In this document: positions 24,849 through 37,483 of the stretch, piece by piece
How the letters are laid out: each line of letters starts with the position of its first letter
How positions within the stretch are numbered: the stretch's first letter is position 1
IMG/VR virus record: IMGVR_UViG_3300027419_000016
Location: 1 to 39,304 of that record
Origin: a virus
Taxonomy: Duplodnaviria; Caudoviricetes
Length of the DNA stretch: 39,304 bases
Direction: 5' to 3' (one strand)
Made by a program: the position numbers and the translations under genes
Notes under the pieces: model-generated
The model's input: the letters and a program-made list of their open reading frames with translations, nothing else
Databases searched by the model: none
Told to the model about the DNA's origin: nothing

Positions 24849-24855
24849 AAGCTAT

Positions 24856-24930
24856 TGGAGCGCCGGGGTCAGACTCTCACTGCCCTCTACTCCCTGGATG
24901 GGAGTCGCAACGATTCTTTGCTTCCGGCGC
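24856..24930 (-). tRNA. Non-canonical tRNA-Gly(UCC)-like element embedded in the mom 3' end
   Basis: GCGCCGG/CCGGCGC acceptor, U73, encoded CCA; GCAA/UUGC D stem; ACUCC/GGAGU stem with loop CA-UCC-AG; bulged T arm. Confidence 0.85.
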
Positions 24931-25274
24931 AGATATTCTCCTAGGTATTTTCTCATATCCTGATCTAGTGGCATAAGGAATTTGTGTTTTCCCTTACTAA
25001 TGAAGTATTCAGCCTGTGGGTCAAGATGTTTACGGACTGCCTCAAGTGACTGTTTGACACCCATACTATGGATAGTCTTTGGATGAACTTTTTTACCCCG
25101 GACGATAAATGCACTCCGCGTCCCTTTATTAACATGACCTTCATATAACCAATTGCCTGCCTGATAGATTTTGCCTTCGTGGTTTTGGTCAGCATCGGCA
25201 TAACTGACAATAAGGCGGAGGCCGGGGTTTTGTTTGAACAACATCTTGATTGCAATACTGAGAATCTTGGTGAC

Positions 25275-25292
25275 TGTGTGTGTGTGTGTGTG
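25275..25292. repeat. (TG)9/(CA)9 simple sequence repeat inside mom
   Basis: 18-nt perfect dinucleotide run exactly at the frame break. Confidence 0.95.
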
Positions 25293-25502
25293 CTCAAAGC
25301 GACCCTCGTTAATTCACATACCTGTGTTTGATCTAGTCCGTATGGGCTACCAATGTGGTTGTTGGCCCCACGACTAAAGAGAACGCATCCAATGAACTTT
25401 TCATCCTCCCACACCCCGATCTTCACGAGTTTACCCGCAGGGAGGCTGTGGGAATAGTGAAAACTCTCACAGGCATATTTCGCTGCTTGGTGGGTACACC
25501 AA

Positions 25503-25991
25503 TCAAGCCGTAAATTCATGGCCACATTCCGGACAGGTTACTTGCTTCTCATTGAGTCGATCAAGGCTCGGTGGATTTTCACTGCTTGGTTGGAATCGGT
25601 CAGCCAGATCGGCCAGCGGGGTGGATTTTGAAAGGTCGACATGATAATCATTCAACCGCAATGATGGGACAGCCAGGACTAATTCAGCTAGTTTCTGTTG
25701 GTCATATTCCCCTGCCCGATCATTGTCAGATAAGGCGTATTCCACCCATTCCTTTTCTGTCGGTGCGTCGACGACACTTACCCAAACCTCAGAAATACCA
25801 AGATCCTTGTAAGCCCGCAAACGCATATTCCCACCGAGAACTACCCCGTCCGTCGTTACAATCAACGGCTTGTATTGCCCCAATTGGTTAATTTGCCGTT
25901 TAAGACGATCAAAATCGTCTTTATTGATTGTCCTGGGATTCTTATCCCAATTCTTCAACTTCTCAATCGGCCACAATAGTTTTTCGGCCAT
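25503..25991 (-). CDS. ParB/Srx N-terminal domain protein with C-terminal Zn ribbon
   Basis: KNPRTI, PLIV...VLGGNMRLRA, DNDRAG, CPECGHEF; start after GGGAGG. Confidence 0.85.
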   Translation of the reverse strand: MAEKLLWPIEKLKNWDKNPRTINKDDFDRLKRQINQLGQYKPLIVTTDGVVLGGNMRLRAYKDLGISEVWVSVVDAPTEKEWVEYALSDNDRAGEYDQQKLAELVLAVPSLRLNDYHVDLSKSTPLADLADRFQPSSENPPSLDRLNEKQVTCPECGHEFTA

Positions 25992-26488: not shown

Positions 26489-26695
26489 TCATGCCTGTCG
26501 TTGGTAGCGTGTTTCACCGTAGTATTCGTGGATAATATCATGGCACAATCGGCAGATGAGGATGACCATTATGTCTCGCATCGGGTGTTTGTAGTACCGT
26601 GATCCCTTTTTACGTCCCGGCCAAATTGCATGGTGTTCAGTTAGTGGGCCATGGATACCACACAGTGGACAAATACCAAGCTTCTGATTACTCAT
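26489..26695 (-). CDS. Small HNH endonuclease
   Basis: CPLC...TEHH...CRLCH..IH; real start at 26695. Confidence 0.8.
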   Translation of the reverse strand: MSNQKLGICPLCGIHGPLTEHHAIWPGRKKGSRYYKHPMRDIMVILICRLCHDIIHEYYGETRYQRQA

Positions 26696-27083
26696 AGCGG
26701 AAAAACAAATACAGTTGCGTACGATTATTAACGATGGTGTAGAACATGTCGGTCGTGAGTTGGCGCATAATCCAGATCCCCCGGCCCGATACGGCCTGGT
26801 GGTCGGGCAAGTCACGCTCCATCCATTCGCTGTAGTCAAACGTACCCATGTTTTCAACCATGAATTTGATATGTGATGGATAGACAGTTACCTCAAGGGT
26901 AATATCCCAATCGTGAGCGATAGAAACATAATAGGCATTACCCAATGCCTCTCGCACGGCCAATTGCACGTCATACTGCCAATCAACATCAAAACCAGAG
27001 AGGACAATCTTCAGAAACTCAACAAACCGATGAATCAGGCTCGCTGGATAGGTTGCCGTGCTGGTCGTGCCGATTTCCAACAT
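26688..27083 (-). CDS. RsbW-like HATPase_c (anti-sigma / Ser kinase family) protein
   Basis: N-box LAVREALGNA, G1-like VENMGTFD, G2 SGRGIWIM; AAGGAGG RBS. Confidence 0.8.
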   Translation of the reverse strand: MLEIGTTSTATYPASLIHRFVEFLKIVLSGFDVDWQYDVQLAVREALGNAYYVSIAHDWDITLEVTVYPSHIKFMVENMGTFDYSEWMERDLPDHQAVSGRGIWIMRQLTTDMFYTIVNNRTQLYLFFRYE

Positions 27084-27171
27084 GGCATGATTCCTCCTTG
27101 TTAAGGTAGTGGGGTGAAGATAAATACACTAGGGCTACTTGTGACCCCATAGGTTGCCCCATGTGGCCAGT

Positions 27172-27241
27172 TGGAGCGAACGAGTGGGTACGAGCCACCA
27201 ACCTGTCGCCGAAGCGACTGCTCTCCTTGAGCTACGTCCGC
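27172..27241 (-). ncRNA. Anticodon-less tRNA-like RNA with Gly-type acceptor stem
   Basis: GCGGACG UA GCUC AAGGA GAGC A GUCGC UUCG GCGAC AGGUU GGUGG CUCGUAC CCACU CGUUCGC U CCA. Confidence 0.85.
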
Positions 27242-27261
27242 ATAGGGGCTTACGCCCCGGG

Positions 27262-27897
27262 TCACATGGCAAGAATCTTGTCGGCATACTGCCAACCTTT
27301 GCTTTTTGGGTTTTTAATCCCGCCTTCCCCGGCATTATAGGCTGCCAGGGCTGCCCGCAGGCCAAGACGGTTGATTTTATCGGCCATCACTCCTGAAAAC
27401 CAACGAAGCGACCAGTTAGGATCGAACGCCTGATCAGCTGTGATGTCTGGATGACTCCGGAGGTTGATTTGCGCGATACCGTAATCACCTGTTCCCGATA
27501 TAACGGCTGTTTGGAAACCGGACTCGTGCCTGATTTGGTTAACAAGGACTCGGATATAGGATTGGCTACCGATAGATGATTCGATGATTGCTCTGGTTTC
27601 TTGTTCGGACAATCGTCTGGATTGTGTCCGAGGTGGTGAGTATGATTCGTCTGTTTGCGCGGTAGTAGTCCGAGTATCCCGAGGGATAATAGTATGAATA
27701 GGATCACCGATAACAAAGGTAACATGTTCCTCCTTTTTTGCTACTAAAAAAGTCGGCCGAGGTGGCATCTGTAAAAATGCTACTTCTGACCGACTCAATT
27801 TGTTTTCCGCTCCAGACCATAGTCCTCCAGCACGCTCGGCATATCCTACTACTAAAAGTGTGCAAAGAATGGTTAACGCAATACTTAGTCTGTTAAT
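27262..27897 (-). CDS. Lytic transglycosylase (SLT domain), probably membrane-anchored with an ATT start
   Basis: HESGF, GIAQI, AAYNAG motifs; frame is open upstream through a TM helix to ATT after AAAGGAG. Confidence 0.8.
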   Translation of the reverse strand: MNRLSIALTILCTLLVVGYAERAGGLWSGAENKLSRSEVAFLQMPPRPTFLVAKKEEHVTFVIGDPIHTIIPRDTRTTTAQTDESYSPPRTQSRRLSEQETRAIIESSIGSQSYIRVLVNQIRHESGFQTAVISGTGDYGIAQINLRSHPDITADQAFDPNWSLRWFSGVMADKINRLGLRAALAAYNAGEGGIKNPKSKGWQYADKILAM

Positions 27898-29195: not shown

Positions 29196-29608
29196 TATTC
29201 CTCCGCTACTTGCTGGGGGTCGGGTTCAATTACCACCATCAGGCGACTGAGTATTTTGGCGGATTTTTCCTCGATGATGTTATGAATCTTGGTATCAATA
29301 ATTCTGGCTAGCTCTTCTTCGAGTTGGTGTGTCCCCCATCTTTTTGTCATTCGATCTTCGACTATACTCTCAATGGCCGGTGTCAATTTCTCCAAGACAA
29401 TCTTTTTAATGTCAGAAGCTAGATCGTCCTTCCCAATAGTGGAGTATGTGTTTTCATTAACTATTTGGTTAGCCAAAATCTCTTTTGCTTTCTGCTGCAC
29501 TGCATAGGCAACCTGCCGTGGTAGATCTTCTACATGGTAACCTTCTGTTAATAAACCACGGACTTTTTCCTCATCAATCTCTATCTCGAATTTCATCCTT
29601 CTCTCCAT
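29195..29608 (-). CDS. Hypothetical helical protein
   Basis: Overlaps the next gene by TAATG. Confidence 0.65.
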   Translation of the reverse strand: MERRMKFEIEIDEEKVRGLLTEGYHVEDLPRQVAYAVQQKAKEILANQIVNENTYSTIGKDDLASDIKKIVLEKLTPAIESIVEDRMTKRWGTHQLEEELARIIDTKIHNIIEEKSAKILSRLMVVIEPDPQQVAEE

Positions 29609-29611
29609 TCT

Positions 29612-29769
29612 CCAGACGCCCTGTGTTGGTGGGAGGTAGCTACCGCCTCGGCCTACTGCCTCATTCCGATATTTCCGATTCTAAGGGCATACGCTACCTA
29701 CAACTGTGTCCTGGATCGCTGCAAGGCAGGTTCTTGGCTCTCCAGGGGCCCACCAGACAAGGCATCTGG
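29612..29769 (-). ncRNA. Structured intergenic RNA (three-way junction on a long closing stem)
   Basis: CCAGAUGCCUUGU/ACAGGGCGUCUGG, UGGUGGG/CCCACCA, CCUGGA/UCCAGG, AGGUAGC/GCUACCU. Confidence 0.65.
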
Positions 29770-29776
29770 TTGTTAA

Positions 29777-29890
29777 TTAGCCAAGTAGTAGACCAGTGAT
29801 TACCCCTAGGATAAAACCGAGAATCAATCGTGTTTGATGTACATACTTGAGTTGAGGTGTCCATCTTTCTCTTTTAGTTAGGTCGCTCAT
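29777..29890 (-). CDS. Small membrane peptide (37 aa)
   Basis: MSDLTKRERW...LILGFILGVITGLLLG; GAGG RBS; TAATG coupling. Confidence 0.55.
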   Translation of the reverse strand: MSDLTKRERWTPQLKYVHQTRLILGFILGVITGLLLG

Positions 29891-37039: not shown

Positions 37040-37360
37040 TTATTCGGACGTGGTTATTCCCACTAGCCTATTAACAAGTGCTTCTTTCGGGAGGTGTCAC
37101 ACGGTTGTCTCCCCGTCCCTCCTGTATCCTAACTCTGCACCAGTCCGCTACTTGGGTTAGCTGGCCGTTTCAACCCTCACATCGCTCAGGAGACGATAGA
37201 GCGTAGGCATTCGTTCGTGGCTACCCTCCTCAGGCGGTAGCTACCTGCCTGACCACGGGACATTAAGAGGCATCCAAGGGGGGCGTCCACGATTGGCCGT
37301 TAGCCTCACCGATCCCCTCAGGTGTGGGAGACCATTTGGTTGATGTCACCACAATGGTCG
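37040..37360 (-). ncRNA. Hairpin-dense non-coding region (candidate large ncRNA or replication origin)
   Basis: No credible ORF; many nested stems. Confidence 0.4.
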
Positions 37361-37366
37361 AAAACC

Positions 37367-37393
37367 AAAAAACCCCAGGCTTACGCCAGGAGT
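37367..37393 (-). terminator. Rho-independent terminator
   Basis: CUCCUGGC-GUAA-GCCUGGGG followed by U6. Confidence 0.7.
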
Positions 37394-37397
37394 CTCT

Positions 37398-37483
37398 TGG
37401 ATGATACACGACAAGCCGTAACCGAAGTTACGATTAGGTGTCTATATTGTGGGCAGCTTTCGCTGCTTGTCGATATCATACCA
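37398..37483 (-). ncRNA. C4-antisense-like three-stem small RNA
   Basis: AUGAUAU-CGACAAGC/GCUUGUCG-U-GUAUCAU closing stem, GAAA- and UUCG-capped hairpins, 3' CCA, then terminator. Confidence 0.65.

What the first reader, a model, noticed from the sequence alone, without database searches (positions are those of the whole stretch)
27172..27241. Second Gly-acceptor tRNA-like RNA with its anticodon loop replaced by a C(UUCG)G tetraloop
Seen: 70-nt cloverleaf with U8, GCUC/GAGC D stem, D-loop GG, A15-U48 pair, 5-bp T stem, GCG/CGC-U-CCA acceptor end, but the anticodon arm is GUCGC-UUCG-GCGAC. GNRA-capped hairpins flank it (GGGGC-GUAA-GCCCC and CAUGGG-GCAA-CCUAUG). An ultra-stable tetraloop suggests selection rather than decay. 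Inference: it cannot decode, so it may be an anticodon-nuclease-proof aminoacyl carrier, a decoy for tRNA-targeting defences or GlyRS, or a processing signal.
Basis: partly seen in the sequence, partly recalled or inferred. Interest (0 to 1): 0.85.

Follow-up and report, generated by a model that had tools for sequence, protein, structure and literature searches.

The report
Anticodon-less glycine tRNA mimic in phage
A groundwater phage carries a 70-base gene shaped like a glycine tRNA whose codon-reading loop is sealed off, so it cannot translate and is predicted to be poorly charged with glycine; it likely acts as a decoy for host proteins that attack tRNA ends, although no relative or RNA data yet show its job.

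Summary
Window 27172-27241 (minus strand) is a real tRNA-type cloverleaf: Rfam tRNA 44.3 bits, all 21 pairs formed, Gly acceptor G1-C72/C2-G71/G3-C70/U73/CCA, and a C(UUCG)G cap in place of the anticodon loop, between two GNRA hairpins.

The 'first' RNA (24856-24930) overlaps the 3' end of mom. It belongs to a covarying family found at 115 of 160 mom loci, in which 107 of 108 distinct RNAs keep the anticodon CC that GlyRS reads. The finding's RNA has lost that CC and lacks the family's T-stem bulge, so a Mom glycyl carrier is unlikely.

It belongs instead with a broad set of short-loop tRNA look-alikes in phages (about 510 viral stretches estimated), where UUCG is rare. It is the only one seen with both a Gly acceptor plus CCA and a neighbouring mom. 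No independent relative was found.

Best reading (0.35): a selected, non-decoding, mostly uncharged tRNA-Gly end mimic acting as a decoy. Rivals: processing signal, retired mom RNA, Mom carrier. New variant of a known kind.

The parts
27172..27241 (-). 70-nt tRNA-Gly-acceptor look-alike with a C(UUCG)G cap in place of the anticodon loop (the finding)
   Evidence: ARAGORN; Rfam RF00005 44.3 bits; fold; model R1 30.3 bits; model R2 56.9 bits
27210..27213 (-). UUCG tetraloop closed by C-G, replacing the 7-nt anticodon loop; no C35/C36
   Evidence: sequence; hairpin scan
27245..27258 (-). upstream GNRA (GUAA) hairpin, ending 3 nt before G1
27148..27163 (-). downstream GNRA (GCAA) hairpin, starting 8 nt after the CCA
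   Evidence: pair probabilities 0.99-1.0
27142..27264 (-). predicted 123-nt closed unit; a 6-bp helix starting at the stop codon of the transglycosylase gene pairs with 27142-27147 (could be chance)
   Evidence: pair probability 0.98 for 5 of 6 pairs; no covariation available
24856..24930 (-). the 'first' RNA: mom-linked tRNA-Gly-like cloverleaf with UCC in the loop and a bulged A in the T stem, overlapping the last codons of mom
   Evidence: model R1, built without it, gives 76.8 bits; no Rfam tRNA match at E<=10
24852..25525 (-). mom-like gene (PF25680) in two reading frames, with a (CA)9 run at about 25275-25292 at the frame change
   Evidence: Pfam/PHROG; frames; same repeat count in L001 and L002; N-half 81% identical to intact P0002; profile of homologs hits PDB 8bv8
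27262..27798 (-). upstream gene, SLT lytic transglycosylase domain (start codon uncertain); its stop codon begins the RNA unit
26688..27083 (-). downstream gene, HATPase_c_2 domain, with no homolog found at E<=1e-10; it starts 88 nt after the CCA

Best explanation
This gene encodes a tRNA-shaped RNA with a host-like glycine acceptor end and no anticodon loop; it is likely cut out of the late transcript, is predicted to stay mostly uncharged, and likely serves as a decoy for host proteins that read the tRNA-Gly acceptor end. Shown: the cloverleaf; the Gly acceptor and encoded CCA; loss of C35/C36; loss of U54/A58; U51-A63 in place of G51-C63; and its place on the same strand as, and about 1.65 kb upstream of, a mom gene that has its own CC-bearing Gly RNA. 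Inferred: (1) RNase P and 3' trimming release a 70-nt RNA ending in CCA-OH, since G18-G19, U55-C56, U8-A14 and A15-U48 are kept; (2) GlyRS charges it far below normal because the anticodon contacts are gone; (3) it cannot decode, and EF-Tu binding is weakened; (4) the capped arm offers no anticodon loop to cut, so it persists and soaks up enzymes that recognise only the CCA end and first base pairs of tRNA-Gly (toxSAS pyrophosphokinases of the FaRel2 type, GNAT toxins), sparing the Gly-tRNA pool on which translation and Mom depend.
For: Structure is kept while decoding features are lost: 21 of 21 pairs form, and the length changes and T-loop substitutions fall in loops. C54 occurs in 1 of 271 parsed canonical tRNAs. 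Tetraloop hairpins cluster at the locus. 4-nt loops are the commonest shortened class in viral contigs: of 121 hits, 9 had 3-nt, 45 had 4-nt, 21 had 5-nt and 33 had 6-nt loops, and 13 had 1-2 nt. So such RNAs recur as a design. Poor charging: C35 mutants lose 105- to 1500-fold (PMC9908026 passages), and mom-linked RNAs keep CC in 107 of 108. FaRel2 acts on deacylated tRNA, reads G1-C72, C2-G71, G4-C69 and Pu5-Py68, and modifies a minihelix (bioRxiv 10.1101/2024.07.05.602228 passages). The finding has three of these plus G4.U69. The phage's mom-tail copy has C4 and C5, and only 13 of 116 mom-linked RNAs have G4 plus purine 5, against 24 of 30 canonical Gly calls. Other 4-nt-loop look-alikes sit in tRNA-conflict settings: an RtcR/RtcB-like locus (L388), an RNA ligase gene (L510) and a TROVE gene (L441).
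Against: No independent relative exists to show conservation: terminase and mom queries return only two near-identical copies, and the UUCG-Gly patterns find only this phage. Most short-loop look-alikes lack CCA (3 of 67 end in NCCA) and lie in mixed contexts, so the class points to no single mechanism. The finding is an outlier in that class: the only one of 35 with C54, U58 or a 5-nt D loop, which may mean decay. The host and its defences are unknown. Position 4-69 is a wobble, not the G-C that FaRel2 prefers. GNAT toxins act on charged tRNA, so an uncharged mimic may bind them poorly. Its closest sequences are Gly-like RNAs with CC loops, several lying just upstream of mom genes, which fits a retired mom RNA just as well.
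Confidence: 0.35

Rival explanations
1. Cis-acting processing or stability signal. The tRNA shape would recruit RNase P and 3' trimming enzymes to cut the late transcript between the transglycosylase gene and the genes running to mom. The flanking tetraloop hairpins would protect the new mRNA ends, and the Gly identity would be inherited, not needed.
For: It sits alone in a 178-nt gap of a co-oriented gene run, starting at a stop codon and flanked by stable hairpins. Elbow contacts are kept. Most class members have arbitrary acceptors and no CCA, as expected if only shape matters, and one lineage lies in front of DUF6353 genes.
Against: A complete Gly end with CCA is seen in 1 of 67 class members, and that one is also the only one with mom in its locus (80 of the 121 loci had 5-kb flanks). 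Loss of U54/A58 should weaken the elbow that RNase P reads, whereas 34 of 35 class members keep it.
Confidence: 0.25
2. Retired copy. It would be a former stand-alone mom-linked tRNA-Gly-like gene (the upstream type), made redundant by the copy at the end of mom, that lost three loop bases and is drifting.
For: The nearest sequences among 427 ARAGORN calls in the fetched loci are Gly-like RNAs with CC loops, some just upstream of mom. 13 of 27 other aberrant GCGG-type Gly hits in viral contigs have a mom-like gene in the locus. C54 occurs in 10 of 108 mom-linked RNAs. The T arm aligns with the family's bulged arm by one deletion. mom itself is out of frame in this phage.
Against: There is no mismatch in 21 pairs despite about five changes at normally fixed loop positions (rough estimate: a few percent under neutral decay). 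The flanking tetraloop hairpins are intact. The T-arm ancestry test was a tie: best score 22 for both mom-linked and canonical tRNAs.
Confidence: 0.2
3. Nuclease-proof glycyl carrier for Mom. GlyRS would charge it through the acceptor arm alone and Mom would take the glycine.
For: Mom uses Gly-tRNA-Gly of any isoacceptor and probably reads only the 3' acceptor end (PMC13219725 sections 10 and 14). Acceptor-T minihelices are charged by GlyRS (PMC9908026). mom lies 1.65 kb downstream on the same strand. U51-A63 resembles the weak-EF-Tu pair of staphylococcal non-proteogenic tRNA-Gly (PMC7826273).
Against: CC is kept in 107 of 108 mom-linked RNAs, including D-armless ones. The bulged T stem (105 of 108) is absent. 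The score against the family model is 30 bits, against 77 for the mom-tail copy. No second example was found at 171 mom loci. Staphylococcal carriers keep C35/C36.
Confidence: 0.14
4. RNA brake on Mom. The uncharged mimic would occupy Mom's tRNA site and damp or delay DNA modification.
For: It is co-oriented upstream of mom. Mom is thought to read the acceptor end. Stable Gly-tRNA analogues competitively inhibit the related transferase FmhB (PMC7826273 passages).
Against: It is not seen at other mom loci. Uncharged host tRNA-Gly could already do the same. There is no direct evidence.
Confidence: 0.06

Closest known systems
Canonical bacterial tRNA-Gly (Rfam RF00005)
   Same: Cloverleaf, G1-C72/C2-G71/G3-C70, U73, CCA, U8, A14, G18-G19, U55-C56; scores above the family's gathering threshold.
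   Different: 4-nt capped loop with no anticodon, 5-nt D loop, C54/U58, U51-A63.
Non-proteogenic tRNA-Gly NP1-NP3 of Staphylococcus aureus (PMC7826273)
   Same: Gly acceptor, altered T loop, non-G-C pair at 51-63, kept out of translation.
   Different: NP tRNAs keep C35/C36 and are charged as well as normal tRNA-Gly; this RNA has no anticodon.
mom-linked tRNA-Gly-like RNAs (no paper found in my searches; also noted in earlier AI findings of this scan) and phage Mu Mom (PF25680, PDB 8bv8, PMC13219725)
   Same: Same phage operon, Gly end with U73-CCA, relaxed T loop.
   Different: No CC, no T-stem bulge, not at or next to mom, host-like G4/A5; 30 bits against the family model, against 77 for the mom-tail copy.
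Phage tRNA-like RNAs of unknown function: T5 RNA1 and RNA2 ('tRNA-like stable RNA') and RNA3 ('putative tRNA-like RNA') in record AY543070; tLRNA families skipping-rope RF02924, DUF2693-FD RF02926, salivarius-1 RF03030; SpF41 RF02435
   Same: Non-decoding tRNA-shaped RNAs in phages.
   Different: The T5 RNAs have other architectures (73-144 nt, no 4-nt capped arm in the predicted folds; R2 scores 8-15 bits). No Rfam match to these families here. I know the tLRNA label and its preprint only from earlier AI notes and have not read the paper.
[quoted passage not shown]
   Same: tRNA-like element proposed as a competitive inhibitor of a tRNA nuclease; 4-nt-loop look-alikes also occur in an RtcR/RtcB-like locus (L388).
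   Different: No Ro60 or RtcB gene was detected in this phage and no Y RNA Rfam match. YrlA has no free CCA acceptor end (recalled).

Membership tests
Functional tRNA-Gly (RF00005) | Cloverleaf above the Rfam gathering score | tested here: met
   44.3 bits against 29
Functional tRNA-Gly (RF00005) | 7-nt anticodon loop with C35-C36 | tested here: not met
   4-nt UUCG loop
Functional tRNA-Gly (RF00005) | Acceptor identity G1-C72, C2-G71, U73, CCA | tested here: met
   sequence; determinants from PMC9976931 and PMC7826273 passages
Functional tRNA-Gly (RF00005) | T-loop U54 and A58 | tested here: not met
   C54, U58; canonical set has T54 in 261 of 271 and A58 in 262 of 271
mom-linked tRNA-Gly-like RNA | CC kept in the anticodon loop | tested here: not met
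   family 107 of 108; absent here
mom-linked tRNA-Gly-like RNA | Bulged base in the T stem | tested here: not met
   family 105 of 108. The finding pairs 5 of 5 without a bulge; a bulged parse needs a U.C mismatch
mom-linked tRNA-Gly-like RNA | Overlapping or adjacent to mom | tested here: not met
   1.65 kb and four genes upstream; another RNA fills the mom-end slot
Non-proteogenic aminoacyl donor tRNA | Charged efficiently by GlyRS | not testable with these tools
   predicted poor from the C35 data
Non-proteogenic aminoacyl donor tRNA | Weak EF-Tu pairs in the T stem | tested here: inconclusive
   G49.U65 (tight type), G50-C64, U51-A63 (not G-C), compared
Short-loop phage tRNA look-alikes (set assembled here) | tRNA body with a paired 5-bp arm and 4-nt loop | tested here: met
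   The search pattern was derived from this RNA, and R2 also scores canonical tRNAs at 55-68 bits, so the 56.9-bit score is not diagnostic
Short-loop phage tRNA look-alikes (set assembled here) | Canonical D and T loops | tested here: not met
   only 1 of 35 (this RNA) has C54, U58 or a 5-nt D loop
tLRNA families and SpF41 (RF02924, RF02926, RF03030, RF02435) | Match to the Rfam model | tested here: not met
   only RF00005 reported at E<=10 over 27090-27290 (same-clan overlaps are hidden); RF02924 and RF02435 gave 0 matches in the genome
Any functional RNA | Expressed and processed | not testable with these tools
   no RNA holder listed

The most novel reading that the evidence does not exclude
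The phage runs a two-RNA system around Mom. A CC-bearing, host-unlike glycyl carrier is written into the end of mom, and an anticodon-less, host-like acceptor mimic either shields the Gly-tRNA supply from tRNA-end toxins or feeds or brakes Mom directly, all under a (CA)n-switched mom gene. That would be a purpose-built RNA decoy or carrier pair serving a DNA-hypermodification enzyme.
Probability: 0.2. Interest if true: 0.8.

Novelty: new variant of a known kind. Interest (0 to 1): 0.47.

Why it matters
Phages are known to counter tRNA-targeting defences by supplying replacement tRNAs (stated in the FaRel2 preprint). A sealed-loop RNA that copies only the acceptor end would be a different counter-measure, a decoy, and it is easy to test with purified GlyRS, Mom and Gly-selective toxins. 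The comparison also gives a usable rule: RNAs beside mom keep the anticodon CC even when they lose the D arm, so loss of CC marks this RNA as doing something else. It also shows that hundreds of short-loop tRNA look-alikes in phage genomes, usually dismissed as undetermined tRNAs, recur as a design. The single copy limits the claim. The mom-tail family is the stronger discovery in this window.

Tried and rejected
Close relatives: mom C-half and terminase queries gave only two near-identical records. The HATPase had no homolog. BLASTN of the RNA region against phages and plasmids gave only short chance hits.

One search found nothing because my pattern miscounted the D loop, so that zero is void.

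C(UUCG)G Gly-type pattern in viral contigs: 119 loci from 52 of 64 parts; I inspected the 34 matches with at least 6 acceptor pairs or a mom hit, and only this phage fits. Short Gly-type pattern in metagenomes: 119 loci from 30 of 64 parts, 109 distinct matches, 26 dropped for poor acceptor pairing; only this phage has UUCG.

mom in the records of other odd Gly-type RNAs: 0 of 5 and 0 of 4, but the records are mostly partial and no positive control rang.

Expression: no RNA holder listed; the contig cannot show repeat-length variation. The promoter scan found 9 sites against 9.7 expected, none near the RNA. The T-arm ancestry test was a tie. My first CC-counting script misparsed most rows (that part void) and was redone by alignment column.

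Rejected: tmRNA or Ala-type carrier (G3-C70, not G3.U70; bacterial AlaRS does not use G4.U69); tRNA-Arg(UCG) origin (U73 and the Gly end; best Arg score 54.5 against 63-70 for Gly-like); assembly artefact (identical in several assemblies, no variants, although these may share a source); repeat element. PADLOC scan of neighbouring genes: nothing convincing apart from a ParB/methylase-linked domain.

Full report
Setting. The window is a complete 39.3-kb virus record with terminal repeats. Its genes are those of a tailed phage, read almost wholly from the minus strand. The one public run that holds the region is a groundwater metagenome, possibly the source. The host is unknown. The RNA lies in a 178-nt gap between an SLT transglycosylase gene and an HATPase_c_2 gene. 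Downstream, on the same strand, come HNH, resolvase-like, ParB-like, mom and terminase genes.

Observation. All stated features are present. ARAGORN calls the RNA, and calls nothing in 40 shuffled genomes. Rfam tRNA scores 44.3 bits in a targeted scan, although the whole-window scan missed it. Two of the genome's three strong coding-strand tetraloop hairpins are here. That helix has no comparative support and could be chance.

The other Gly RNA. A second cloverleaf at 24856-24930 overlaps the last codons of mom and keeps UCC in its loop. I fetched 160 mom loci (the best 80 of 590 viral and the best 80 of 191 genomic). I built model R1 from 35 hand-picked RNAs, leaving out both window RNAs. Its stems covary: 17 of 21 pairs change on both sides, 0 of 500 shuffles as high (the seeds were chosen for folding, so this leans high). 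R1 gave 125 matches. I dropped 9 by eye as ordinary tRNAs or weak hits, leaving RNAs at 67 of 80 viral and 48 of 80 genomic loci, 108 distinct, which include 27 of the seeds. Many have lost the D arm, yet 107 of 108 keep CC in the loop and 105 of 108 have a bulged T stem. The model favours CC by training. Still, the CC-less finding scores 30.3 bits, above the weakest matches reported in those searches, so similar variants should mostly have shown. The mom-tail copy scores 76.8. A mom-independent pattern for short GCGG-type Gly RNAs gave 29 viral loci; leaving out 2 copies of this phage, 13 of 27 carry a mom-like gene. Earlier AI notes describe the same family; I had found it before reading them, and they are not independent support.

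Charging. Mom transfers glycine from Gly-tRNA-Gly of any isoacceptor and is thought to read the acceptor end (PMC13219725; I read the abstract, sections 10, 13, 14 and 38, and term searches of the text and of two supplementary files; one scanned file could not be read). Those searches found no mention of phage-encoded tRNA-like RNAs. E. coli GlyRS loses 105- to 1500-fold on C35 mutants, although minihelices can be charged (PMC9908026, passages). Staphylococcal donor tRNAs keep C35/C36 (PMC7826273, passages). With the family's CC conservation, this makes the finding a poor carrier candidate. Model R2 found no second CC-less Gly mimic at 171 mom loci; I inspected the hits that were not family members.

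The wider class. A pattern for a tRNA body with exactly 15 nt between D stem and variable loop, with any acceptor, hit 121 viral loci in 15 of 64 parts (about 510 estimated). These gave 67 distinct RNAs, 35 of them well paired, with UUCG in 2, GNRA in 4 and other loops in 29. Three of 67 end in NCCA. Only this phage's copy has a full Gly end, and only it has mom in the locus (41 loci had 300-nt flanks only). Among 121 hits with shortened arms, 4-nt loops were the commonest (45; 6-nt 33, 5-nt 21, 3-nt 9, 1-2 nt 13; by distinct sequence 33 against 30 for 6-nt; 5 of 64 parts). Random decay, which should favour one-base losses, would not give this. Contexts are mixed: DUF6353 genes, tRNA arrays, an RNA ligase, a TROVE gene, recombination genes. 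In metagenomes, related RNAs with G3.U70 head arrays of tRNA-like units, one in an RtcR/RtcB-like locus. Model R2, built from 34 selected members, scores the finding at 56.9 bits but scores ordinary tRNAs as high, so it proves nothing about membership. The finding is the class's outlier in its D and T loops.

Mechanism. What the RNA preserves exactly is the acceptor end of a host-type tRNA-Gly and the overall shape. What it drops is everything used for decoding and for GlyRS anticodon reading. Proteins that need only the preserved part include toxSAS of the FaRel2 type, which modify deacylated tRNA-Gly/Thr, read pairs 1, 2, 4 and 5, and accept a minihelix (bioRxiv 10.1101/2024.07.05.602228, abstract and passages). 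The finding matches three determinants plus a wobble. The mom-tail copy does not, and only 13 of 116 mom-linked RNAs have G4 plus purine 5, against 24 of 30 canonical Gly calls. I therefore favour an acceptor-end decoy (0.35). Release, abundance, low charging and toxin binding are all inferred. A cis cut-and-protect signal (0.25) and a retired upstream-type mom RNA (0.20) are close rivals: the nearest sequences are upstream-type Gly-like RNAs, and the T-arm ancestry test was a tie. A Mom carrier (0.14) and a Mom brake (0.06) remain possible.

Against my reading. There is no independent homolog, so selection on this copy is argued only from its internal pattern. UUCG is rare in the class and could arise by one deletion. 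mom is out of frame at a (CA)9 run in the window and in L001 and L002, so a Mom-related role may be dormant.

Known relatives and novelty. It fails membership of functional tRNA-Gly, of the mom-linked family, and of the Rfam tLRNA and SpF41 families. T5 carries annotated tRNA-like RNAs of unknown function with other shapes. YrlA was proposed as a nuclease competitor (PMC7790460, passages). Paper searches (listings only, except the papers named) found no description of a sealed-loop Gly-acceptor RNA in a mom phage. PMC9976931, PMC10690425 and PMC7609411 were seen as passages. The library lacks most subscription papers. A tLRNA preprint named in earlier notes was not read and may cover such RNAs. 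Verdict: real feature, new variant of a known kind, interest 0.47.

Noticed in passing
window 24856-24930 (-): mom-tail tRNA-Gly-like RNA, missed by ARAGORN and Rfam. It belongs to a covarying family at 115 of 160 mom loci, with D-armless subtypes, kept CC and a bulged T stem; it explains the GGxxPTxxLQ-type tails of many Mom proteins.
   Followed up: yes
window about 25275-25292 (-): (CA)9 run at the frame change that splits mom; both halves look intact (N-half 81% identical to a full-length homolog). Possibly a phase-variable switch, possibly an assembly slip.
   Followed up: partly
window about 37370-37480 (-): Predicted three-way junction with a long closing stem, GAAA and C(UUCG)G loops, followed by a GUAA hairpin with a U run, in a 560-nt stretch without a convincing gene; no Rfam match.
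   Followed up: partly
L388:4001-4074, L349:4001-4072, L371:55-126, L392:301-372, L393:301-370: tRNA look-alikes with 4-5 nt purine-rich loops, G3.U70 and U73-CCA, heading tandem tRNA-like units. L388 lies in an RtcR/RtcB-like/SPFH locus and L349 lies before a similar SPFH gene. They could be AlaRS-chargeable without an anticodon.
   Followed up: partly
L439, L445, L454, L465, L479, L490, L507, L436, L438, L433: A lineage of 4-nt-loop tRNA look-alikes without CCA, with covarying arms, lying upstream of DUF6353 (phrog_2152) genes.
   Followed up: partly
L168:6882-6942 (-), L172:6764-6824 (-), L101:3670-3731 (+): tRNA-like RNAs with no anticodon arm at all; L168 and L172 have a Gly-type end and sit in a tRNA array.
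   Followed up: partly
L417:301-372 (-), L381:937-1010 (-): Gly-end look-alikes with 3- and 4-nt loops and T loops AUCGUAC and AUCGUCG, close to the finding's odd T loop; contexts too short to judge.
   Followed up: no
window 29608-29890 and about 37240-37260 (-): Two non-coding stretches share a short self-complementary motif centred on GGTAGCTACC, possibly an operator site.
   Followed up: no
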